Below, piece after piece: positions 11,047-41,314 of a stretch of 64,000 nt of DNA. This DNA comes from Candidatus Gottesmanbacteria bacterium GW2011_GWC1_43_10 (GTDB lineage: Bacteria > Patescibacteriota > Microgenomatia > UBA10105): positions 8,398-72,397 of the forward strand of contig LCEX01000008.1 of assembly GCA_000995415.1 (NCBI GenBank), written 5' to 3'. The position numbers and the translations under genes were made by a program. A model generated the notes under the pieces. That model saw only the letters and a program-made list of their open reading frames with translations. It was not told the DNA's origin and did no database searches. Each line of letters starts with the position of its first letter. Positions within the stretch are counted from its first letter, which is position 1.

Positions 11047-11140
11047 TAATTATCCAATAATCCAATTTCAAATTCTCAAATTATCCAATTTTTTATTGGT
11101 ACTTATTGGATAATTGGATAATTTGCTGATTGGATAATTT
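11047..11140. repeat. AT-rich word-palindrome (ATTATCCAAT / ATTGGATAAT arms) between uxs and the gmd-like gene
   Basis: ATTATCCAATAATCCAAT...ATTGGATAATTGGATAAT imperfect inverted repeat. Confidence 0.5.
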
Positions 11141-13538: not shown

Positions 13539-13650
13539 AAATTTAAAATGTAAATATCAAAATGCAAAATGACAATGTGAAATTTTAAAATTAGTATATC
13601 TTTTTACATTTTTAACTGTCATTTTGATTTTTGCATTTTGCACTTTGCAT
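13539..13650. repeat. AT-rich imperfect palindrome (AAAATGCAAAATGACAATG / CTGTCATTTTGATTTTTGCATTTTGCAC) between the rmlD-like gene and ugd
   Basis: Inverted arms built from the same words as 12104..12245. Confidence 0.5.
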
Positions 13651-14526
13651 TTATATGATCCCTTGTCTCTTTATTTCTTCCAAACCTTGACCAAATGCCC
13701 TCATTGTAACTCCCAAAGAAGCTATTTTATCATTTTTAAGACGTAACTCAAGGGGCCGCGGCGCCCGACCTTGGTAATAGCCGGCAGTTTTGACACCAGT
13801 TATCAATCGCTCATCAAAACCAAACTGTCTGGCTAAAACCTGTGCCGCCTCAAAGGGTGAAAGGGACGCGCCTCCTACTCCATGATAAATTCCTGAGGCA
13901 TTTTTAGCAATAAGGGTTTCAATGCTTTTGGCAATATCATCTATAAAAGTAGGCGTAAAAATATGGTCAGTTAAAACCGTCAATGATTCGTTTCTCTGCA
14001 AACGATGATACAGTGTATGAACAAAATCTTTTTTAGGGCCACCGCATTTGGCACGGTAAGGATAAGCTATGCGGAGTACTATATTTTGAGAGCTATTAAG
14101 CACCACTTGTTCACCTGCATATTTAGTTTGACCATACCAATTGATAGGATGCGGAATTGAATTTTCGGTATAAACTTTTTCCGTTCCGTCAAATACAAAA
14201 TCTGTAGAGATATAAAGCACTCGTTTATGAAACTGGTCTGCTGCTTCTACAATATTTCTGGTGCCTTCGACATTGATTTGCCAGGCAGCGCCTGTTTGAC
14301 CTGCTGATTTATCTTTTTCGCAGCCGTCAACATCGGTTTTGGCAGCCATATGGATCACCCATGCGCTTTGTGAATTTTGTATGTGTTTTGTGACGACTTC
14401 TTTTTGGGTGATATCAACTCCAGTTGCCAAACTTAAATCGGTAAATGAGTATTTGGAATCCAAAAGTTCCACTATTCGTGTACCCACCAAACCTGAAAGG
14501 CCAGTACCAAGGATTACTTGTTTCAT
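13651..14526 (-). CDS. dTDP-4-dehydro-6-deoxyhexose reductase (RmlD family)
   Basis: 291 aa. YISTDFVFDG matches the RmlD STDYVFDG motif. N-terminal GTGLSGLVG. Confidence 0.65.
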   Translation of the reverse strand: MKQVILGTGLSGLVGTRIVELLDSKYSFTDLSLATGVDITQKEVVTKHIQNSQSAWVIHMAAKTDVDGCEKDKSAGQTGAAWQINVEGTRNIVEAADQFHKRVLYISTDFVFDGTEKVYTENSIPHPINWYGQTKYAGEQVVLNSSQNIVLRIAYPYRAKCGGPKKDFVHTLYHRLQRNESLTVLTDHIFTPTFIDDIAKSIETLIAKNASGIYHGVGGASLSPFEAAQVLARQFGFDERLITGVKTAGYYQGRAPRPLELRLKNDKIASLGVTMRAFGQGLEEIKRQGII

Positions 14527-26038: not shown

Positions 26039-26148
26039 AAAATAAATTCAAAAGTTAAAATTCAAAAGGCAAAAGTTCAAGTTAAAAATCAAAAGTTCCT
26101 TACCTTTAAATTTTGAATTGTACTTTTGACTTTTGAATTTTGAATTTT
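26039..26148. repeat. 110-bp AT-rich palindrome (CAAAAGT / ACTTTTG words) separating ftsE and ftsX
   Basis: AATTCAAAAGTTAAAATTCAAAAGGCAAAAGTTCAAG...TTTGAATTGTACTTTTGACTTTTGAATTTTGAATT. Confidence 0.5.
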
Positions 26149-30663: not shown

Positions 30664-31569
30664 TTATTTGAAAGCCAAAAGAAGCACCAGGATACCCAGG
30701 ATGATTCTATACACCACAAATGGATACAAAGAATGTTTGCTTACAAACCGTAAAAAATATTTGATGGTGAGATAACCAAAAATTGCAGCTGATACGATTC
30801 CGACTGCAAAAAAAGTTAGTTCCGAAAACGCTAGTTCACCACTCGCAAATAAACCAATGGTTTTGATAAGTTTCAACCCTCCGGCTCCGGCAATGATTGG
30901 TGCGGATAGTAAAAATGCAAACCGCGCTGCTTCTTCGCGTCTCAACCCTCGCCACATGCCGGCGGAAATCGTAATCCCAGACCTGGAAACTCCGGGAATC
31001 AAAGCTACAGCTTGAGCTAGTCCCACAGTCAGACTATCCCTCCAATTCATTTGTTTTATATCCCTTATTTTCTTCCCCACTTTCTCTACATATATAAGGA
31101 CTCCGGAAAAAAGAATTAGGGTGAGAGCAATGAGCACTGGCGAGCGAAATACTGTCTCCACTTTTTTTTCAAGTAACAAACCAAAAAGCACACCGGGAAC
31201 CGTCCCAATGAGCAATAAAAACGCCAAGCGTTGAGAATTGTCATTCCCACCCCGTATGTCATTCCCGCGAAACTTGTCCTCGACTCCGATCGGGGAGCGG
31301 GAATCTATTTTAATGGATCCTCCGGTCAGGCCAGAGGATGACATTTTGGTTATCGCTGCTAATACTAATTTTTTCCAATCGTCTCTAAAAAACCAAAGTA
31401 AAGCAATCAAAGTTCCCAAATGAAGTGCCGCATCAAAAGACAACCCGTATTTTTCCTGGGAAATTCCCAGTAAATTCTCGGCAATTATCAAATGCCCAGT
31501 TGAGGATATCGGCAAAAATTCCGATATTCCCTGCACCGCACCCAATAGAATAGCTTTTACTAATTCCAT
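30664..31569 (-). CDS. uppP: Undecaprenyl-diphosphatase UppP/BacA, carrying a 36-codon in-frame repeat-derived insertion
   Basis: EFLPISSTGH and PGVSRSGITISAG motifs. Loop 2 is about 20 aa longer than in E. coli and is encoded by a palindromic repeat at 31239..31346. Confidence 0.85.
   Translation of the reverse strand: MELVKAILLGAVQGISEFLPISSTGHLIIAENLLGISQEKYGLSFDAALHLGTLIALLWFFRDDWKKLVLAAITKMSSSGLTGGSIKIDSRSPIGVEDKFRGNDIRGGNDNSQRLAFLLLIGTVPGVLFGLLLEKKVETVFRSPVLIALTLILFSGVLIYVEKVGKKIRDIKQMNWRDSLTVGLAQAVALIPGVSRSGITISAGMWRGLRREEAARFAFLLSAPIIAGAGGLKLIKTIGLFASGELAFSELTFFAVGIVSAAIFGYLTIKYFLRFVSKHSLYPFVVYRIILGILVLLLAFK
31239..31346 (-). mobile_element. MITE/RPE-like palindromic repeat (GTCATYCC...GGGAATGACA family), 108 bp, inserted in-frame inside uppP
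   Basis: The coding-strand sequence AATGTCATCCTCTGGCCTGACCGGAGGATCCAT...GATTCCCGC...CGCGGGAATGACATACGGGGTGGGAATGACAA aligns end-to-end with 41186..41295. Confidence 0.7.
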
Positions 31570-31575
31570 GTAACA

Positions 31576-32394
31576 TTACTTAACTAACGATTTTAGTATA
31601 TCAAGATTCTTCTTATCTGGCCCTTTATCATCAAACCCCGGAGTTTCCAAAATTAGGGGCAACTTATCAAAATGCGGCGAATTTAATAATAATTTAAGCG
31701 CCGGAGTACCCACAAATCCTGCTCCCAAATTCTCATGCCGGTCACGAAAACTTCCGGCTGCAACTTTACTATCATTGACGTGCATACACTCAATACTTTC
31801 CCACCCCACAGTTGTTTGAATCATTTTATTCAAGCTTTCCATCTTTTCATAAGTATCAAATGTATAACCGCCTGCAAATAAGTGCGCCGTATCCAGACAC
31901 ACGCCGATTTGTGGAGAACCAACAACCTCACACATTTGCGAAAGCTCTTCACCGGTCGAACCGACTTTGCCTTTTCCACCCGAGGCTACTTCAAGTAACA
32001 GTTTCGTTTTGCCATGAGTTTGCCGAAATATTGAATTTATCGAATCAACAACAACTGGCAAAGCTGCGGCAAACCCTTTACCTTTGTGACTTCCGGTGTG
32101 AACAATCACGCCCTTAGCGCCAATTTTATCGCCAAACCGCAAATCCTCAACCAGGCTTTTGATTGAAAGCTCACGCAAAGTTTCTTTTTCACTAGCCAGA
32201 TTGATCAAATAACACGCGTGGATAAAAATTGGACTGATTCCTAAATCAGTAGCTTTAGTTTTAAAAGCTTCACAATCGCTATCTGTAAATTTTGGCCCTG
32301 CAAAAGACTGCGGTGGTGAGGAAAAAATTTGGATGCAACTAGCTCCCATCGCACTGGCCTTTTCCAAAACCGCAACCAGTCCCGAGGATGACAT
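31576..32394 (-). CDS. nfo: Endonuclease IV (AP endonuclease family 2)
   Basis: FIHACYLINLAS...GVIVHTGS...LLLEVASGG TIM-barrel Nfo blocks. 272 aa. Confidence 0.85.
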   Translation of the reverse strand: MSSSGLVAVLEKASAMGASCIQIFSSPPQSFAGPKFTDSDCEAFKTKATDLGISPIFIHACYLINLASEKETLRELSIKSLVEDLRFGDKIGAKGVIVHTGSHKGKGFAAALPVVVDSINSIFRQTHGKTKLLLEVASGGKGKVGSTGEELSQMCEVVGSPQIGVCLDTAHLFAGGYTFDTYEKMESLNKMIQTTVGWESIECMHVNDSKVAAGSFRDRHENLGAGFVGTPALKLLLNSPHFDKLPLILETPGFDDKGPDKKNLDILKSLVK

Positions 32395-33563: not shown

Positions 33564-34178
33564 TTACTTTAGCGCTTTAGCCACTTCCGCGTCTAGATCA
33601 GTGAAAGAAAACAGACTAAGTTTTTTGCCATTGAGATAAAATGTTGGGGTGGCATTTACGCCAATCGCAGTTCCATCTGTTAGATCTTTCTGAACTTTGT
33701 CTTTATATTTACCGGTGGCTAAATCCTGATTAAATTGACTCATGTCCAACTTCAAATCACTTGCCAATTTTTGGATGGTTTCATCAGATAAGTCTTTTTG
33801 GTTGGCAAACAACAAATCATGCATTTCCCAAAATTTACCCTGGGCTCCGGCTGCTTCAGCTGCTTCAGCTGCCCGGCGGGCATTTTTGTGTTGATCAAGT
33901 GGGAAATGGCGGTAGACAAATTTTAAATCGTCCTTATATTTTTCAACTACTTGTTTAACTACCGGATATGCGGCTCCGCAGGCCGGACATTCAAAATCCG
34001 AGAATTCGACTAAGGTGACTTTAGGCGTAGTTGGTCCGGTCGACCAAGCTCCCAAGACATCAGCCGAGACGACTACCTCTTTTTGCGGTTGGGAAAAAAA
34101 GGCCACTGCACCGCCCAAAACCACGAGTGTGGCTACGATCACGCTCACGAAGAATTTGGTTTCACCACTAACTTGCAT
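33564..34178 (-). CDS. DsbA-like thiol:disulfide oxidoreductase, membrane-anchored
   Basis: Thioredoxin fold with FECPACGAAYP CPxC motif. N-terminal TM. Confidence 0.75.
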   Translation of the reverse strand: MQVSGETKFFVSVIVATLVVLGGAVAFFSQPQKEVVVSADVLGAWSTGPTTPKVTLVEFSDFECPACGAAYPVVKQVVEKYKDDLKFVYRHFPLDQHKNARRAAEAAEAAGAQGKFWEMHDLLFANQKDLSDETIQKLASDLKLDMSQFNQDLATGKYKDKVQKDLTDGTAIGVNATPTFYLNGKKLSLFSFTDLDAEVAKALK

Positions 34179-34222
34179 AAGTACCCTAGCATAGCAAAAT
34201 TGGGGCTAAAAAGCAATAGATA

Positions 34223-34456
34223 CTATAGGCCTGTAGCTGGTAGGATCCCGCTCCAGGGTGAGGCTACCGGGGAAGCTATCGGGGTCGGAGTGGGTGAAGT
34301 TTTTGCACTTTGCGATTGACTCGTTTTCGGCGTAAAATCCTTTAAATTGACTTTCACTAGTTTCCTGGTTGCATAAACGATTAACGCTCCCAAAAGTAAT
34401 AAAACTACCAAACCTAAAACGACTCGGTTCATATTGATATAGGCCACAATATACAT
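34223..34456 (-). CDS. Small membrane protein with Pro/Thr tail ending LPATGL
   Basis: 77 aa ORF, one TM, ending ...SPWSGILPATGL. Uncertain whether it is a real gene. Confidence 0.25.
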   Translation of the reverse strand: MYIVAYINMNRVVLGLVVLLLLGALIVYATRKLVKVNLKDFTPKTSQSQSAKTSPTPTPIASPVASPWSGILPATGL

Positions 34457-34524
34457 AAATTAGCCCACCGAGTCAAATTTTTCATTTTGGTTTGCAAAAA
34501 AATAAGATATCTTTGTTATATCCT

Positions 34525-35208
34525 TTAAAAAAACAAGTGATTCACAAAACCAATTTCATATACTATTCCCAGTCCCAAGATGATGCTCAAAGTGCCGGCA
34601 GTTTTTTGTAAAATCATTTCTAGTTTGTTAAACCGGGTTAATTTACTTTTGGCAAAAGTTAGGGGCAAACCAATCAAAAAACTCATCGCTGTCATTCCCA
34701 CGATTGAACCCATCCCAAAAAGCAGAATATAAATGACACCTTCAACTATTGAACGAAATGTTGAAAGCACGAGCACCATGAGTGCCCCACTTCCTGCAAG
34801 TCCATGAACCGCACCAATCAAAAATGAGCGCTTGTGTTGATGGTGATGGCGATGGTCCGAGTGGATATGACTGTGTTCACTAACCCCATGTTCATGAGCA
34901 TGTTCATGAAGTTCTTCGGTTTTAAGTAATGCCCGAATTCCTAAAATAACCAGCATGATTCCAACCAGTGATTCAAGTCCGAGTCCCAACCGAAGCGGGA
35001 TATTTATTTTAAGTATGAGTACGGCAAGCCCCACCATAAACAGAGTCGTGGTGTGGCCTATCCCCCAAAACGTACCGATAAGGGCTGCCCGAAATGAATT
35101 TTTGTGTTCGGTCACGAGTGTCATGACCGCGGTGAGATGGTCTGCTTCAAGAGCATGCTTAAACCCCAGAAATATCCCAAATAAAAATGTAAACAAAATC
35201 GTCGGCAT
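34525..35208 (-). CDS. NicO/RcnA-family nickel/cobalt transporter with His-rich loop
   Basis: TM1 HALEADHL (H-x4-DH) signature. HEHAHEHGVSEHSHIHSDHRHHHQH loop. Confidence 0.65.
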   Translation of the reverse strand: MPTILFTFLFGIFLGFKHALEADHLTAVMTLVTEHKNSFRAALIGTFWGIGHTTTLFMVGLAVLILKINIPLRLGLGLESLVGIMLVILGIRALLKTEELHEHAHEHGVSEHSHIHSDHRHHHQHKRSFLIGAVHGLAGSGALMVLVLSTFRSIVEGVIYILLFGMGSIVGMTAMSFLIGLPLTFAKSKLTRFNKLEMILQKTAGTLSIILGLGIVYEIGFVNHLFF

Positions 35209-35212
35209 AATT

Positions 35213-37398
35213 TTACCTGCCTAAATATTTTTTAATTTTCTCTTCTATTCCTGATGTGGCTTTTTGTGTCAGATCTTTTATTTGTTTGGTATAAAACGCA
35301 ATTTTTTCTTGCAACAAAACCGAAACAAAACCTTTGAGCTGGTCCCGGTTCATGAAACAAGTTAACGGTTCTTTTTGGCAATCTGTATAAAACTTGATGG
35401 TTGTAGTTTGCGGTAAACTATTACCATTAATTTTTAAGGCAACTTCTGACTGGGCGCTTCTTGATGCTACAAAATCGACAAAGAATGGTTCAAATCTTGT
35501 ATCCAACTGCCCGGGAATTTGGGCTGTAATTGGGGCTGCTTCATCAAGTTTCGCTTCCAATGACTGGACTCTTGTTGGACGCGACAAAATGGAAAGCGCA
35601 ACTACAAATAAACGAATTGGGTTACGTCCGGCAATTGCCGTCGTATTGGCCCAATAAAAGGTTGAGGTCCCAGGATCAAGAGGCAAAGCTCCCAGATCTG
35701 GCTGAAAGATAGGAGCCAATTCTTTGACTTGGGAATCAGTTAAAGTCAGGGGTGTGATTTTCCAAATTTCTTGATCTTTAGTAATGGTCGCCATTTTGAT
35801 TTGCTCAAGTTTGGGAGTTTCCCAACCCAGAGCGAGCGTGTTGTTTGCTTGGTCAGGGATTATGAAAAACCTCGGATGTTTGGCAAAAGTAATAAACTGC
35901 GGAGTATTGTTACTTAGTATTTCAACAAGTGTCATCTTGACCGGACTCACAAAACCACTATTTAAGTTGTTTGTTGTAATAAAATCCGGCTCCAGTGTGA
36001 TCCGGCTGTTGTCTACTGTAATTTCCACCACTTCTTTTTCCTGTTTAACTTGAGCTTCAGATGCGCCGGATAATTTAATCCCAAAGGGTTGGACTCCGTC
36101 GTCAGACCGTACCGGATGGCCGGCATAAATATCAGGATTGGAAGGTACCTTTTTGACAGTATATTGCTGCGAACCGTCAATGGTATAAGGCACGATCCAA
36201 TAAGCGCGCGATACTTGAGCAGCTTGGGTCTGGTAAACATCGGTTAGAGGTGAAAAATTTCTAAGATCTGTAAGCAACAAATCTCCGCCAATCACCTGGA
36301 TCCGCGCCCGATACGTGCGGCCAAAGTACCAGAGCACCGTCCCTTCCTCGGGAAAGCGCGGACTTTTAAGCATCCGGCTAGAATTTAGAGGAGTTTGATT
36401 TTTGAAAAGTACCGCGTATTCATGTGGTGAAAAAACTTTGATTTCGCCTGTTTTTTGTTTTTGGACTATTTGCGCCAGTTGTTTTTGATATTCGGCTTTA
36501 AAGTCAACCCACTCGGCTGAATTTTCAAGCCCTAAAAGAATGAGTCCGACATCTTTTTGAGCAATCATTTGATCAAGTAGACTGGTGAAATAATTGGTGC
36601 CAGGAGTCTTAGGATTTTGTAAATAATCATTGGGCTGTGAAGTAAAATACGTAAAAGAGGATCCGTAGTTTCGGTCAAGATCACTTATGGTTTGGCGCAC
36701 CATTACAAGATCAAGTTGACTAGCTTTGTCTGGAGCGGGAATCAGCGGATGACCCAAAGAGGGATAATAAGGAGCATCAAAAATCCCCCCATAAAGCGTA
36801 TAACTGTCTGTTTCATATTGTTCTTTTGTGATTTCATGAAGTTCTACTCCGTATTCATCATGAATGTATTTGAGCGACCAGGCATCAACCATCCAGGCGA
36901 CTGTAAATGTAGGGAAATAACCAAACTGGGTATGAAACTCGCCAAAAACTGTATCAATCAATTGTTTGCGTTCAGTCTGGGTGTAACCGATGAGAAATGC
37001 ATTACGCGCCGAGTACCAATCAGATCCGCTGCTTTCACCTTTGTAATTCACGGCGCTGGCTGAAGCAAGTTGGGGGGTGATTTCCAAAAGAATTCCCAAA
37101 GATTGAGCCCGGGGTAAATTTTTGATTTTTTCAATAGTTGCGCTATCTACCAAAGCATCGTATCGCAGAGCCCAAGCCAAAGGTAAGTTTTTATTTTCAT
37201 CGAGCGAATTGATCTCCGAAAATATATCCGAGGTTCCCCCATGACAACAGGTTTGGGGACCCAACAGGTTTGGGGACCACGGATTTGGTGAATAATCACA
37301 GCATGAGAACCCAAGGATTCTGCACGAACCGGTAATGAGACCAGACTGACGACAAAAATAAAACTTAAAATAATCCCGATTCCGCGAATAATGTTCAT
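35213..37398 (-). pseudogene. Large secreted protein gene split by a 17-bp tandem duplication (signal-peptide ORF 37147..37398 plus body ORF 35213..37264)
   Basis: Removing one copy of CAACAGGTTTGGGGACC (37246-37262 / 37263-37279) joins MNIIRGIGIILSFIFVVSLVSLPVRAESLG...IRGPQTC in frame to CHGGTSDIFSEINSL... of the 683-aa ORF. Confidence 0.6.
37246..37279. repeat. Perfect 17-bp tandem duplication (CAACAGGTTTGGGGACC x2) causing the frameshift in the secreted-protein gene
   Basis: Read directly from the sequence at 37246-37262 and 37263-37279. Confidence 0.9.
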
Positions 37399-37477
37399 AA
37401 TCTGTCTTTTAAATTTTATCCTAACTTCCTATCTTACCGCAAACTCTCTTGAACTAATTATTGACATCGAAGCGCAG

Positions 37478-38869
37478 ATGATGTCTAATAAGTTAGAGAC
37501 CTCTTTTATGAAGGATATTGTTTCATATGTAAAAGCCAATAAAGCCAGGCTACTGCCGATCGGGTTATTGCTTTTCCTTGCACTGGCGACACTTTTTACT
37601 CTGCAACTCACCAAAAAACGGCAGGAATTGCGGACCAAAGCTACCGCGGCTACGGCAATTTTAAGTTTTACTCCGACTATCATCCCAACTTCTCCCGAAA
37701 GCACGTTTGACGTATCGGTCAATCTGGATAGCGGTGGTCAGGCTCCGGTCGGAGCTGATATTCTAGTGAATTTTGATAAAAATCAACTGACTTTGCGAAA
37801 CGTCACTCGACCAACGCTGCAAACCAATTCTGTTTTTAAAACTTATGCGCCGGTGGTAAATGACGGTAGTGGTACGTTTGATACTTCAAGAGTCATGAGT
37901 TGTGCCAATACTGGCTTAAATGGCGGCAGCGGCACTGATTGTCCGAGCGGATCTGGTGTAGTGGAATTTGGAATTATCGCTTTTGATTGGGCCAACGATG
38001 TGCTTCCGACACCCGATCCGGCAAATACGATTTTGAGTCCGGTGATTACGTTCACTTTCCAAGTGGCTCCAACCGCCAGCGGCCAAACTTTACTTACTTT
38101 TAAATATGACGGAACTGGGGTAACTACCGATTCGAATGTGGTGATTGAACCCACCGGTACGGGTAATCCTGAAGATATTCTGGCGGCGCCCACTTCAGTA
38201 GCGACAATAACCCTTGGTGGAGCCGTACCGACCCCATCTCCATCACCATCTACGACTCCGGCACCTACTCCCTCGGCCTCACCCGGAGTCAGTCCGTCAC
38301 CATCAGCCACACCTTCCACTTCACCAGGTGACACCGGATCACTTACGCTGCAAGTTTTGTTTGAGGGCGTGGGCAAACCTGGTATCCAACCAAATCTGAC
38401 AGCCAATATTGAGCTCAAACAAGGTACAACTATAATCACTTCCCAAGACGCCACTTTCGCCGCAAACGGCGAGCAAGTTTTGATCCAAGCTCCAAATTAT
38501 TATTTGTGGGTCTATACCAATACCGCAAGTCCCCTCACCAATCTGGCCGTGGGTGATTATGATGTCTATGTCAAGGGGCCGAAAAACTTGCGCCGGCTGT
38601 TGGGCAGCATCTCTATCACCGCCAACCAAACCACTCTAGCCAACTTCGCTACATCCGACCTGGTTTTACTTACCGGAGATACCAATAATGCCAATAAAGT
38701 ACTATTGGGATATACAGATTTAGTCATCAACTACGGTTGTCCCAACAATCCAGTAAATATCGATCCAGCCGCCTGTACTTTGGTCGCAGATGTGGACTTT
38801 GACGGTCAAATCGATTTGGATGATTATACCTATATCGTATCTAACTACAATAAAACAGGCGTTAATTAA
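37478..38869 (+). CDS. Surface protein with cohesin-like domain, PT linker, beta-sandwich domain and C-terminal dockerin-like Ca-binding repeats
   Basis: VNFDKNQLTL cohesin-like block, PTPSPSPSTTPAPTPSASP linker, GDTNNANKV.../DVDFDGQIDLDDYTYIVSNY dockerin-like repeats. The ORF track starts at 37391; a likelier start is the Met at 37478. Confidence 0.55.
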   Translation: MMSNKLETSFMKDIVSYVKANKARLLPIGLLLFLALATLFTLQLTKKRQELRTKATAATAILSFTPTIIPTSPESTFDVSVNLDSGGQAPVGADILVNFDKNQLTLRNVTRPTLQTNSVFKTYAPVVNDGSGTFDTSRVMSCANTGLNGGSGTDCPSGSGVVEFGIIAFDWANDVLPTPDPANTILSPVITFTFQVAPTASGQTLLTFKYDGTGVTTDSNVVIEPTGTGNPEDILAAPTSVATITLGGAVPTPSPSPSTTPAPTPSASPGVSPSPSATPSTSPGDTGSLTLQVLFEGVGKPGIQPNLTANIELKQGTTIITSQDATFAANGEQVLIQAPNYYLWVYTNTASPLTNLAVGDYDVYVKGPKNLRRLLGSISITANQTTLANFATSDLVLLTGDTNNANKVLLGYTDLVINYGCPNNPVNIDPAACTLVADVDFDGQIDLDDYTYIVSNYNKTGVN

Positions 38870-41185: not shown

Positions 41186-41295
41186 TGTCATCCTCCGGCT
41201 TGACCGAAGGATCCATAGTTACTTTGAAAACGGATTCCCGCTTTTCCGCCATAGGCGGACAGGCGGCGGGAATGACATACAGGGCGGGAATGACA
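41186..41295 (+). repeat. Full-length copy of the MITE-like repeat family
   Basis: TGTCATCCTCCGGCTTGACCGAAGGATCCAT...GGATTCCCGCTTTTCCGCCATAGGCGGACAGGCGGCGGGAATGACATACAGGGCGGGAATGACAA, 20 bp upstream of dinB. Confidence 0.65.
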
Positions 41296-41314
41296 ACCCT
41301 AATAATATATAACA

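What the first reader, a model, noticed from the sequence alone, without database searches (positions are those of the whole stretch)
35213..37398. Secreted 760-aa protein gene split by a perfect 17-bp tandem duplication
CAACAGGTTTGGGGACC occurs twice in tandem at 37246-37279. With one copy removed, the signal-peptide ORF (37147..37398) fuses in frame to the 683-aa ORF (which the track starts at a TTG). As it stands the mature domain lacks its signal peptide. This could be a recent inactivating duplication, an assembly or consensus artefact, or an on/off switch by slipped-strand or recombination between the repeats. The encoded protein has no recognised domain. It may be a carbohydrate-active or surface enzyme.
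Basis: seen in the sequence. Interest (0 to 1): 0.65.

Follow-up and report, generated by a model that had tools for sequence, protein, structure and literature searches.

The report
Gene split by likely assembly-join duplication
A perfect 17-base tandem repeat does break a secreted-enzyme gene in this sequence, but 20 other assemblies of the same groundwater bacterium carry one copy and an intact gene, so the break is most likely an assembly join error and not biology.

Summary
CAACAGGTTTGGGGACC occurs twice in tandem at 37245-37278, one base off the reported position. Removing one copy fuses the two ORFs into a 722-aa protein, not 760 aa. That protein is 100% identical to KKS87361.1 of Candidatus Gottesmanbacteria GW2011_GWB1_43_11.

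The window is contig UV55_C0008 of a sibling low-coverage MAG. Twenty other contigs of this population have one copy and are otherwise identical or nearly identical to the window. None has two copies. The frameshifted 83-aa product is absent from 15 billion predicted proteins.

The repeat-unit edge is a recurrent assembly breakpoint:
- Two contigs from other assemblers start exactly there.
- A sibling MAG has a 113-bp deletion ending at the same nucleotide.

The three GW2011 MAGs that could be read here carry about one private indel per 6 kb. The window has another one, 131 bp missing at 32378-32382.

Best reading: two contig ends overlapping by 17 nt were butt-joined (about 0.62). A real segregating duplication allele is not excluded (about 0.25). 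A programmed switch is unlikely (about 0.05), and no ortholog checked is split.

The intact protein has a signal peptide, a glycoside hydrolase/deacetylase-type barrel, Ig-like domains and a C-terminal helix. Interest is low.

The parts
37245..37261 (-). Copy 1 of the 17-bp unit (plus strand CAACAGGTTTGGGGACC; gene strand GGTCCCCAAACCTGTTG). It encodes G41-P-Q-T-C45 and the first two bases of the C46 codon of the intact protein.
   Evidence: Window position 37261 is also where contigs L022/L029 and L030 start, and where the UV04 deletion ends.
37262..37278 (-). Copy 2 of the 17-bp unit. This is the extra copy relative to all other assemblies. It shifts the frame by +2.
   Evidence: Twenty distinct contigs have one copy and none has two.
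37147..37398 (-). 83-aa ORF. It holds the true N-terminus (45 residues: signal peptide, beta-strand 1, R40, G41-C45), followed by 38 out-of-frame codons.
   Evidence: The product is absent from the 15-billion-protein collection and from 1.84 billion cluster representatives.
35213..37264 (-). 683-aa ORF with a TTG 'start' that spans the junction of the two copies (its two Ts come from one copy, its G from the other). It is annotated in GenBank as KKS81832.1 (UV55_C0008G0047). It is the body of the gene, not an independent gene.
35213..37398 (-). The whole gene. With one 17-bp copy removed it encodes the 722-aa protein KKS87361.1/OGG10025.1. Its parts are a signal peptide (residues 2-26), a glycoside hydrolase/deacetylase-type barrel (about 31-340), Ig-like beta-sandwich domains (about 345-665) and a C-terminal helix (679-721).
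37226..37284 (.). Imperfect DNA hairpin (quasi-palindrome) that encloses the duplication site. In the single-copy sequence its arms are ATCCG.GGT..CCCC and GGGG.ACC.CGGAT.
   Evidence: dG is -12.4 kcal/mol on the plus strand and -12.6 on the gene strand, with z-scores of -2.9 and -3.5 against shuffles.
33564..35208 (-). Downstream same-strand genes: a DsbD_2/NicO-like membrane protein (34525-35208, starting 4 bp after the stop), a 77-aa protein (34223-34456) and a DsbA/thioredoxin-like protein (33564-34178). This is probably one operon with the 722-aa gene.
   Evidence: A distant ortholog locus, L039, also has NicO/DsbD_2 and DSBA neighbours.

Best explanation
The 17-bp tandem duplication is most likely a local assembly or scaffold-join error in one low-coverage metagenome-assembled genome: contig UV55_C0008 of a Candidatus Gottesmanbacteria GW2011 MAG from Rifle groundwater.

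Proposed mechanism (inferred):
- Two contig ends overlapped by only 17 nt, which is shorter than the smallest default k of the de Bruijn assemblers concerned (my recollection, not checked here).
- The ends were placed next to each other from read-pair information and joined end to end without collapsing the overlap.
- This wrote the shared 17 nt twice.

The organism's real gene is the intact 722-aa gene seen in every other assembly. It encodes a Sec-exported protein with an N-terminal (beta/alpha)-barrel of the glycoside hydrolase/deacetylase superfamily, several Ig-like domains and a C-terminal helix. It probably acts on an envelope or extracellular glycan and is probably co-expressed with a DsbD-like/DsbA-like disulfide system.

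What is shown: the duplication is present, it is private to this record, the gene is intact elsewhere, and contig breakpoints recur at the unit edge.

What is inferred: the butt-join mechanism and the biochemical role.
For: 1. The fused protein is 100% identical over 100% of its length to P0001 (KKS87361.1/OGG10025.1).

2. Twenty distinct contigs have the single-copy junction and none has the double copy. They come from MEGAHIT-style assemblies in ENA, Logan, JGI, GCA_001779175.1, the GenBank assembly GCA_003535735.1 and the sibling MAG UV17. The sibling MAG UV61 encodes the intact 722-aa protein. Several of the contigs match the window with 0 mismatches over 5-8 kb apart from the 17-bp gap.

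3. The 683-aa product is on record only from this GenBank record. The 83-aa frameshift product is not in the 15-billion collection and has no match among 1.84 billion representatives.

4. Window position 37261, the unit edge, is a recurrent contig boundary.
- ERZ28564304 scaffold_3422 and Logan SRR1658343_21846 both begin exactly with GGTCCCCAAACCTGTTG.
- In the same ENA assembly, scaffold_273 arrives from the other side with the single-copy sequence and overlaps scaffold_3422 by 55 nt without being merged.
- The sibling MAG UV04 has a 113-bp deletion whose end is that same nucleotide.
- The downstream-side boundary is the same in all three cases. The upstream-side boundaries all differ. This pattern fits a problem contig end.

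5. The GW2011 MAGs are full of private indels, about 13 in about 80 kb compared.
- UV04: 109, about 107, 85, 115 and 113 bp missing, plus a run of 46 N.
- UV17: about 87, 48, 6, about 161 and 129 bp.
- The window itself: 131 bp missing at 32378-32382, truncating the AP-endonuclease gene.
- The other assemblies show no such indels, apart from two NN gaps in GCA_003535735.1.

6. The duplication has zero microhomology at its ends, as expected for an arbitrary overlap.

7. Chen et al. 2020 (PMC7111523) describe this error class in IDBA-UD and CLC assemblies: duplicated sequence at scaffold joins whose flanks overlap.

8. No ortholog checked is split at this point. Nearly all of the 120 listed homologues keep the signal peptide and the RGxxxCC motif, and two apparent N-terminal truncations are mis-called starts.
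Against: - No reads could be inspected, so the absence of read support for the double copy is inferred and not shown.
- The breakpoint recurs at exactly the unit edge in what may be three different read sets: UV55, UV04 and SAMN03202998/SRR1658343. A purely random coverage gap does not explain this unless those assemblies share reads, which I could not establish.
- A real single/double-copy polymorphism would produce a de Bruijn-graph branch at exactly that nucleotide and would explain the recurrence equally well.
- One private MAG indel in the same gene, the 48-bp in-frame deletion of UV17, is also listed from Logan. So not every such lesion is an artefact.
- The site lies in a significant DNA hairpin, and hairpins can promote real slippage events.
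- The deposited sequence has no Ns at the join.
Confidence: 0.62

Rival explanations
1. The duplication is a genuine spontaneous loss-of-function allele. A 17-bp tandem duplication arose by replication slippage or template switching at the local hairpin. It segregates at appreciable frequency alongside the intact allele in the aquifer population, and the UV55 assembly followed the duplicated path.
For: - A mixture of single-copy and double-copy reads would place graph branch points exactly at the two unit edges. Contigs in two other assemblers start at exactly that nucleotide, and the UV04 junction lies there too.
- 17 is not k-1 for the common assembler k values (my knowledge, not checked here), so the length is not obviously set by an assembler.
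- The site is a significant quasi-palindrome.
- A real indel polymorphism appears to exist elsewhere in the same gene: the 48-bp deletion is also listed from Logan.
Against: - Twenty of 20 other contigs that span the site are single copy.
- No predicted protein with the frameshifted tail exists anywhere in the collection.
- In sample SAMN03202998 the contig coming from the upstream side runs 38 nt past the unit with the single-copy sequence and does not stop at the unit end.
- There is no microhomology at the ends.
- The host MAG and its siblings carry many demonstrably private indels.
Confidence: 0.25
2. The repeat is a programmed or selectable on/off switch (phase variation). Gain and loss of the 17-bp copy reversibly turns export and activity of a surface enzyme off and on.
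For: - A two-copy tandem repeat can revert precisely by slippage or recombination.
- The gene encodes a secreted or surface protein, the usual class of phase-variable genes.
- The breakpoint recurs at the unit edge.
Against: - Known contingency loci use many copies of 1-7-nt units. Here there are two copies of a 17-nt unit that encodes the family's invariant catalytic-domain motif.
- The unit's DNA is not conserved in orthologs, and no ortholog among the 120 examined is split there. The apparent truncations are mis-called starts.
- Only one of 21 or more assemblies carries the off state.
Confidence: 0.05
3. The gene is naturally split and the two ORFs function separately, as a small exported peptide plus a cytoplasmic 683-aa protein.
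For: GenBank annotates the 683-aa ORF as a protein.
Against: - The 683-aa ORF starts at a TTG formed at the junction of the two copies, and I saw no Shine-Dalgarno-like sequence upstream of it.
- It lacks beta-strand 1 and the invariant R40 of the barrel.
- The tail of the 83-aa ORF is out-of-frame sequence with no homologue.
- All homologues are contiguous.
Confidence: 0.01

Closest known systems
Local assembly errors at scaffold joins in short-read metagenome assemblies (Chen, Anantharaman, Shaiber, Eren and Banfield 2020, Genome Res, PMC7111523)
   Same: - There is a perfect duplicate of a short sequence at a point where two contigs meet.
- It occurs in a low-coverage MAG of the GW2011 groundwater set.
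- It is private to that assembly.
- Neighbouring private deletions of about 50-160 bp look like the same class of error.
   Different: - The published description has Ns between the duplicated flanks. Here no Ns remain.
- Lack of read support, which is the defining test, could not be checked.
Spontaneous frameshifting tandem duplications, and their precise reversion, in bacteria
   Same: A head-to-tail exact duplication that is not a multiple of 3 inactivates a gene. It is located in a quasi-palindromic region.
   Different: There is no flanking microhomology, and no second observation of the allele among 20 other contigs of the population.
Slipped-strand phase-variable (contingency) loci
   Same: A repeat-number change in the 5' coding region of a surface-protein gene would switch it off and on.
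   Different: The unit is 17 nt with 2 copies, not many copies of 1-7 nt. The repeat is not conserved in orthologs. It lies in an invariant catalytic-domain motif, not in a dispensable leader region.
PDB 3lm3 (BDI_3119, putative glycoside hydrolase/deacetylase) and CE4/GH57-type 7-stranded barrels (3qbu, 1z7a, 3s6o, 3p0b)
   Same: The N-terminal domain of the intact protein has the same fold class: Foldseek E = 6e-13 to 3lm3, target-normalised TM-score 0.58.
   Different: - There is no sequence-level match to any PDB chain, Pfam family or NCBIfam family.
- The family has no invariant His and only one near-invariant His (H182), so the canonical CE4 Asp-His-His metal triad is not apparent.
- It has an invariant CC pair, Ig-like domains and a C-terminal helix that these structures lack.

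Membership tests
Scaffold-join / local assembly error | The variant is present in one assembly only, and independent assemblies of the same population lack it. | tested here: met
   Zero of 20 other contigs carry it. The 683-aa product is known only from this GenBank record, and the 83-aa product is absent from 15 billion proteins.
Scaffold-join / local assembly error | The duplicated segment coincides with contig ends. | tested here: met
   Contigs L022/L029 and L030 start exactly at the unit edge. The UV04 deletion ends there. Two scaffolds of one assembly overlap there without being merged.
Scaffold-join / local assembly error | No read perfectly supports the consensus across the join. | not testable with these tools
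   No read-level data are available. This is the decisive missing test.
Scaffold-join / local assembly error | The same assembly or pipeline shows other unsupported local lesions. | tested here: met
   The window lacks 131 bp at 32378-32382. UV04 and UV17 have about 11 private lesions between them: 10 indels of 6-161 bp and one run of 46 N. The other assemblies have none apart from two NN gaps in GCA_003535735.1.
Phase-variable contingency locus | A tract of many short (1-7 nt) repeat units whose number varies. | tested here: not met
   The unit is 17 nt with exactly 2.0 copies, and the identity does not extend beyond them.
Phase-variable contingency locus | Both states are observed within or between populations. 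| tested here: inconclusive
   The double copy is seen in one MAG only and the single copy in 20 contigs. The recurrent breakpoint could reflect hidden heterogeneity.
Phase-variable contingency locus | The repeat or switch is conserved in orthologous genes. | tested here: not met
   Nearly all of the 120 homologues are contiguous through the motif. The two short ones examined are mis-called starts with intact upstream frames and different DNA at the site.
Glycoside hydrolase/deacetylase 7-stranded barrel superfamily | Fold match of the catalytic domain. | tested here: met
   The AF2 model has pLDDT 94.4 and pTM 0.91. Foldseek hits are 3lm3 (E = 6e-13), 3qbu (3.7e-7), 1z7a and 3s6o (1e-3) and the GH57 enzyme 3p0b (7e-4).
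Carbohydrate esterase family 4 (NodB deacetylases) | Conserved Asp-His-His metal triad and catalytic His motifs. | tested here: not met
   The invariant columns are R40, C45, C46, R73, D75, E100, E187, Q188, D192, R229, N251, D252, E286 and others. There is no invariant His; only H182 reaches 90% or more. There is no Polysacc_deac_1 Pfam hit.
Sec-exported protein | An N-terminal positively charged, hydrophobic and AxA-type signal peptide. | tested here: met
   MNIIRG-IGIILSFIFVVSLVSL-PVRA|ES, judged by inspection. The model has a helix at residues 2-19. The same layout is seen in about 110 of 120 homologues. No dedicated signal-peptide predictor was available.

The most novel reading that the evidence does not exclude
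The 17-bp unit edge is a true mutational hot spot at a quasi-palindrome. Single-copy and double-copy alleles co-exist across several Rifle groundwater samples. The population therefore keeps an 'off' state of a conserved exported CPR glycan-acting enzyme that can revert precisely. This would be a tandem-duplication switch of an unusual kind: a long unit, two copies, inside an invariant catalytic motif. The heterogeneity would also be what breaks the assemblies at that nucleotide.
Probability: 0.07. Interest if true: 0.45.

Novelty: not a real feature. Interest (0 to 1): 0.12.

Why it matters
As biology it probably does not matter, because the organism's gene is intact. It matters as a data-quality point.
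- GenBank KKS81832.1 (683 aa, TTG start) is a truncated, mis-started version of a 722-aa exported protein.
- The GW2011 MAGs compared here carry roughly one unsupported indel per 6 kb. These can mimic pseudogenes, split genes or 'switches'.
- Scans for gene inactivation or phase variation in CPR MAGs should compare sibling assemblies before interpreting such lesions.

A secondary result concerns the protein family. It is a conserved family of about 700 aa in Microgenomates with no Pfam model. It now has a confident fold assignment: a glycoside hydrolase/deacetylase-type barrel with an invariant RGxxxCC motif, plus Ig-like domains. In this genome and in one distant ortholog locus (L039) it has Dsb-like neighbours.

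If reads did show a real single/double-copy mixture, it would be a modestly interesting case of a reversible loss-of-function allele in an uncultivated episymbiont-type lineage.

Tried and rejected
- **Collection scans.** Exact scans for the 34-mer (double copy) and for a 38-mer (single copy) found nothing in the GTDB genome contigs or the JGI metagenome contigs. Those collections do not hold this locus, so the scans are uninformative.
- **Word-index protein search.** The search for homologous proteins with the 83-aa ORF returned 'no candidate shares three words', although P0001 shares 45 residues with it. This is a limitation of the index, not evidence.
- **Exact look-ups.** Ten possible contig-end partial N-terminal products were all absent. 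This is weak evidence, because very short partial products may not be stored.
- The window's own 683-aa product is not in the gene-position index.
- **GC-bias hypothesis.** I tested whether the lesions sit in AT-rich, low-coverage DNA. Lesion segments have GC of 0.32-0.53 against a window mean of 0.42, with no trend. Rejected.
- **Recurrent N-terminal truncation in other species.** P0018 and P0063 start at or after the CC motif, but their upstream DNA is in frame and intact. They are mis-called starts. Rejected.
- **SNP variants near the site as the cause of the contig breaks.** No SNP lies within about 1 kb of the site in any contig.
- **Sequence-level annotation.** Pfam, NCBIfam and PDB sequence searches gave no hits.
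Full report
**1. Observation**

On the plus strand the 17-mer CAACAGGTTTGGGGACC occurs at 37245-37261 and again at 37262-37278. The two copies are exact, and the period-17 identity does not extend by even one base on either side. TRF scores it as 2.0 copies at 100% match. It is the only perfect repeat with a period above 12 nt in the window. Shuffles give 0 expected matches.

The gene lies on the minus strand. An 83-aa ORF (37147-37398) carries the true start. A 683-aa ORF (35213-37264) begins at a TTG that spans the junction of the two copies.

**2. Source of the window, and the intact gene elsewhere**

The fused protein is 100% identical over its full length to P0001. P0001 is KKS87361.1 (UV61_C0002G0082, Candidatus Gottesmanbacteria bacterium GW2011_GWB1_43_11), which is the same sequence as OGG10025.1.

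The window's own 683-aa ORF is exactly KKS81832.1 (UV55_C0008G0047), on a 73,567-bp contig. The only sources that hold it are NCBI and NCBI nr. The window is therefore a sibling MAG from the same Rifle groundwater data set.

I fetched every reachable contig of this population. Twenty distinct contigs carry the single-copy junction with both flanks, and none carries the double copy. They are:
- ENA assemblies of SRR1658465, SRR1658462 and SRR1658343
- ten further ENA assemblies
- Logan SRR1658462 and SRR3989344
- JGI 3300025323
- GCA_001779175.1
- GCA_003535735.1
- the sibling MAG UV17

The sibling MAG UV61 encodes the intact protein, although its DNA was not read here. Several of these contigs match the window with 0 mismatches over 5-8 kb apart from the 17-bp gap.

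The 83-aa frameshift product is not among about 15 billion predicted proteins. It has no hit among 1.84 billion cluster representatives.

**3. The unit edge is a recurrent assembly breakpoint**

- ENA ERZ28564304 scaffold_3422 (15.5 kb) and Logan contig SRR1658343_21846 (3.4 kb) both begin exactly with GGTCCCCAAACCTGTTG, which is window position 37261.
- In the same ENA assembly, the 73-kb scaffold_273 arrives from the other side. It carries the normal single-copy sequence and stops 38 nt past the unit. The two scaffolds therefore overlap by 55 nt without having been merged.
- The naming pattern of these ENA contigs looks like that of the SPIRE resource, which used MEGAHIT with default parameters (PMC10767986). 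This attribution is my inference.
- The sibling MAG UV04 (GCA_000998235.1) reads ATTATGAACA|GGTCCCCAAACCTGTTG. That is a 113-bp deletion whose end is unambiguously the same nucleotide.

In three assemblies, then, the downstream piece starts at the same base, while the end of the upstream piece differs each time: 17 nt past that base in the window (the end of the unit), 55 nt past it in scaffold_273, and 113 nt short of it in UV04.

**4. The assemblies that carry these lesions are error-rich**

Over the roughly 31 kb that could be compared, each of three GW2011 MAGs (the window, UV04 and UV17) has private indels without Ns.
- UV04 lacks 109, about 107, 85, 115 and 113 bp and has a run of 46 N. 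These lesions hit Sua5, RF-1, the DsbD-like gene and the IMS polymerase gene.
- UV17 lacks about 87, 48, 6, about 161 and 129 bp.
- The window lacks 131 bp at 32378-32382. This shortens the AP-endonuclease product from 280 to 272 aa. The 272-aa product is again on record only from this MAG, while the 280-aa form is held by NCBI, JGI/IMG, Logan, ENA and UniRef on 17 contigs.

The other assemblies show no such indels. The only exceptions are two NN gaps in GCA_003535735.1.

That is about 13 lesions in about 80 kb. Only one of them, the 48-bp in-frame deletion of UV17, is also listed from Logan.

Chen et al. 2020 (PMC7111523) describe local assembly errors as prominent in IDBA-UD assemblies. They include joins at which the flanking sequences overlap and are left duplicated.

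From my own knowledge, not checked here, the GW2011 genomes were IDBA-UD assemblies with automated error repair. PMC6509639 says only that the ra2.py strategy was described in Brown et al. 2015.

**5. Interpretation**

The most economical account is as follows.
- In several low-coverage assemblies the downstream contig begins at window 37261.
- In UV55 the upstream contig happened to reach 17 nt past that base, which is less than the smallest default k of these assemblers (my recollection), so the graph could not merge the two.
- A read-pair-guided join then wrote the shared 17 nt twice.
- In UV04 the same contig start was joined across a 113-bp gap.

The lack of any microhomology at the duplication ends fits an arbitrary overlap.

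What this account does not explain by itself is why the downstream contig starts at the same base in what may be different read sets. I could not map the MAGs to sequencing runs.

Three causes remain open:
- The assemblies share reads.
- There is a sequence-specific technical effect. The site lies inside a significant imperfect hairpin, with dG about -12.4 kcal/mol and z about -3.
- There is real heterogeneity.

A true mixture of single-copy and double-copy molecules would create graph branches exactly at the unit edges. I therefore keep a genuine segregating duplication allele as a serious rival, at about 0.25. GC bias does not explain the lesions. No SNP variants lie near the site.

**6. Switch hypothesis**

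I found nothing that supports a programmed switch.
- The unit encodes G41 to C46 of the motif IxxQxRGxxxCCxxG. In that motif R40, C45, C46 and G49 are invariant across 69 aligned homologues.
- Nearly all of the 120 listed homologues keep the signal peptide and the motif in one frame.
- Two of the homologues that appear to start at or after the motif (P0018 and P0063) are simply mis-called starts. Their upstream DNA is intact and in frame, and their nucleotide sequence at the site is different.
- Two copies of a 17-nt unit are unlike known contingency repeats.

**7. What the gene encodes**

There are no hits in Pfam, NCBIfam or PDB sequence searches.

An AlphaFold2 model built from the 69-sequence alignment is confident, with pLDDT 94.4 and pTM 0.91. 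It shows:
- an N-terminal hydrophobic helix (residues 2-19) followed by PVRA|ES, which reads as a Sec signal peptide by inspection
- a beta/alpha barrel from beta-strand 1 (residues 31-39) to about residue 340
- beta-sandwich domains to about residue 665
- a long C-terminal helix (residues 679-721)

Foldseek against the PDB matches the barrel to these structures:
- 3lm3, a putative glycoside hydrolase/deacetylase (E = 6e-13)
- 3qbu, the HP0310 peptidoglycan deacetylase
- 1z7a and 3s6o, polysaccharide deacetylase family proteins
- 3p0b, a GH57 branching enzyme

The C-terminal half matches invasin, intimin, SbsC and filamin Ig-like domains.

The invariant residues are mostly Arg, Asp, Glu, Trp and Tyr, plus the CC pair and C668/C675. 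There is no conserved His pair, so this is not a canonical CE4 enzyme.

The duplication site lies immediately after beta-strand 1. The 683-aa ORF therefore lacks the signal peptide, beta-strand 1 and R40, and would be non-functional as written.

The gene is followed on the same strand by a DsbD_2/NicO-like membrane protein (4 bp after its stop), a 77-aa ORF and a DsbA/thioredoxin-like protein. A 45%-identical ortholog also sits next to NicO/DsbD_2 and DSBA genes. This fits an exported, disulfide-containing enzyme. That link is inference.

**8. Verdict**

- The 'split gene' reading is correct.
- The break is most probably an assembly-join artefact of one MAG (0.62).
- It is less probably a real loss-of-function allele (0.25).
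- It is improbably a switch (0.05).

Read mapping would settle the question in minutes, but it is outside the available tools.

Noticed in passing
window 32378-32382 (compare L011 2743-2873): The window lacks 131 bp that every other assembly has. The junction has a 5-bp microhomology, AGTCC. The loss removes the start of the AP_endonuc_2 gene (272 aa here, 280 aa elsewhere). The 272-aa product, KKS81826.1, is private to this MAG. It is probably a second assembly lesion.
   Followed up: partly
window 41186-41296 and 31238-31345; third copy in L011 2788-2890: A dispersed intergenic repeat of about 110 bp, rich in hairpins (GTCATTCCCGC...GCGGGAATC and TCCTCGGA...TCCGAGGA). It has at least three copies at 76-84% identity and looks like a REP/MITE-like element in a CPR genome.
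   Followed up: partly
window 35887-35933: A 48-bp in-frame deletion allele of the same gene (706-aa product, KKS52106.1) is present in the sibling MAG UV17, and Logan is also listed as a source for it. The GenBank assembly GCA_003535735.1 has an NN gap at 35915-36042, and two contigs have a SNP at 35927. This is probably real strain variation in an Ig-like domain.
   Followed up: partly
L009/L018, L024 (GCA_000998235.1) and L010/L016/L026 (GCA_000998605.1): The sibling GW2011 MAGs carry many private deletions of 48-161 bp without Ns (plus one 6-bp gap), in genes such as RF-1, Sua5, BacA, the DsbD-like gene and the IMS polymerase gene. The rate is roughly one per 3-6 kb. The other assemblies of the same population compared here have none.
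   Followed up: yes
window 34725-34801: Dense SNP clusters between strains (contigs L004 and L008) fall in the His-rich loop of the DsbD_2/NicO-like membrane protein gene.
   Followed up: no
window 11048-11139, 13539-13652, 26044-26148: Long AT-rich imperfect palindromes of about 100 nt, built from 7-8-nt periodic motifs: an A-rich arm followed by its T-rich complement. They sit in short spacers between same-strand genes, for example between the FtsE-like and FtsX-like genes. They may be terminators or attenuators, or structured RNA.
   Followed up: no
window 33564-37398 and L039: The 722-aa gene is followed by DsbD_2/NicO-like, 77-aa and DsbA-like genes. A 45%-identical ortholog locus also has NicO/DsbD_2 and DSBA neighbours. 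The family has an invariant adjacent cysteine pair (C45-C46), which could form a vicinal disulfide or bind a metal, and invariant C668/C675.
   Followed up: partly
window 26384: A single-base difference private to the window relative to five other assemblies (L021, L022, L023, L024 and L028).
   Followed up: no
window 37391-38869: The maximal ORF is 492 aa and would overlap the start of the 722-aa gene by 8 bp. Most gene calls use the internal ATG at 37478 (463 aa). The protein has no family match, and its sequence contains a Pro/Ser/Thr-rich stretch.
   Followed up: no
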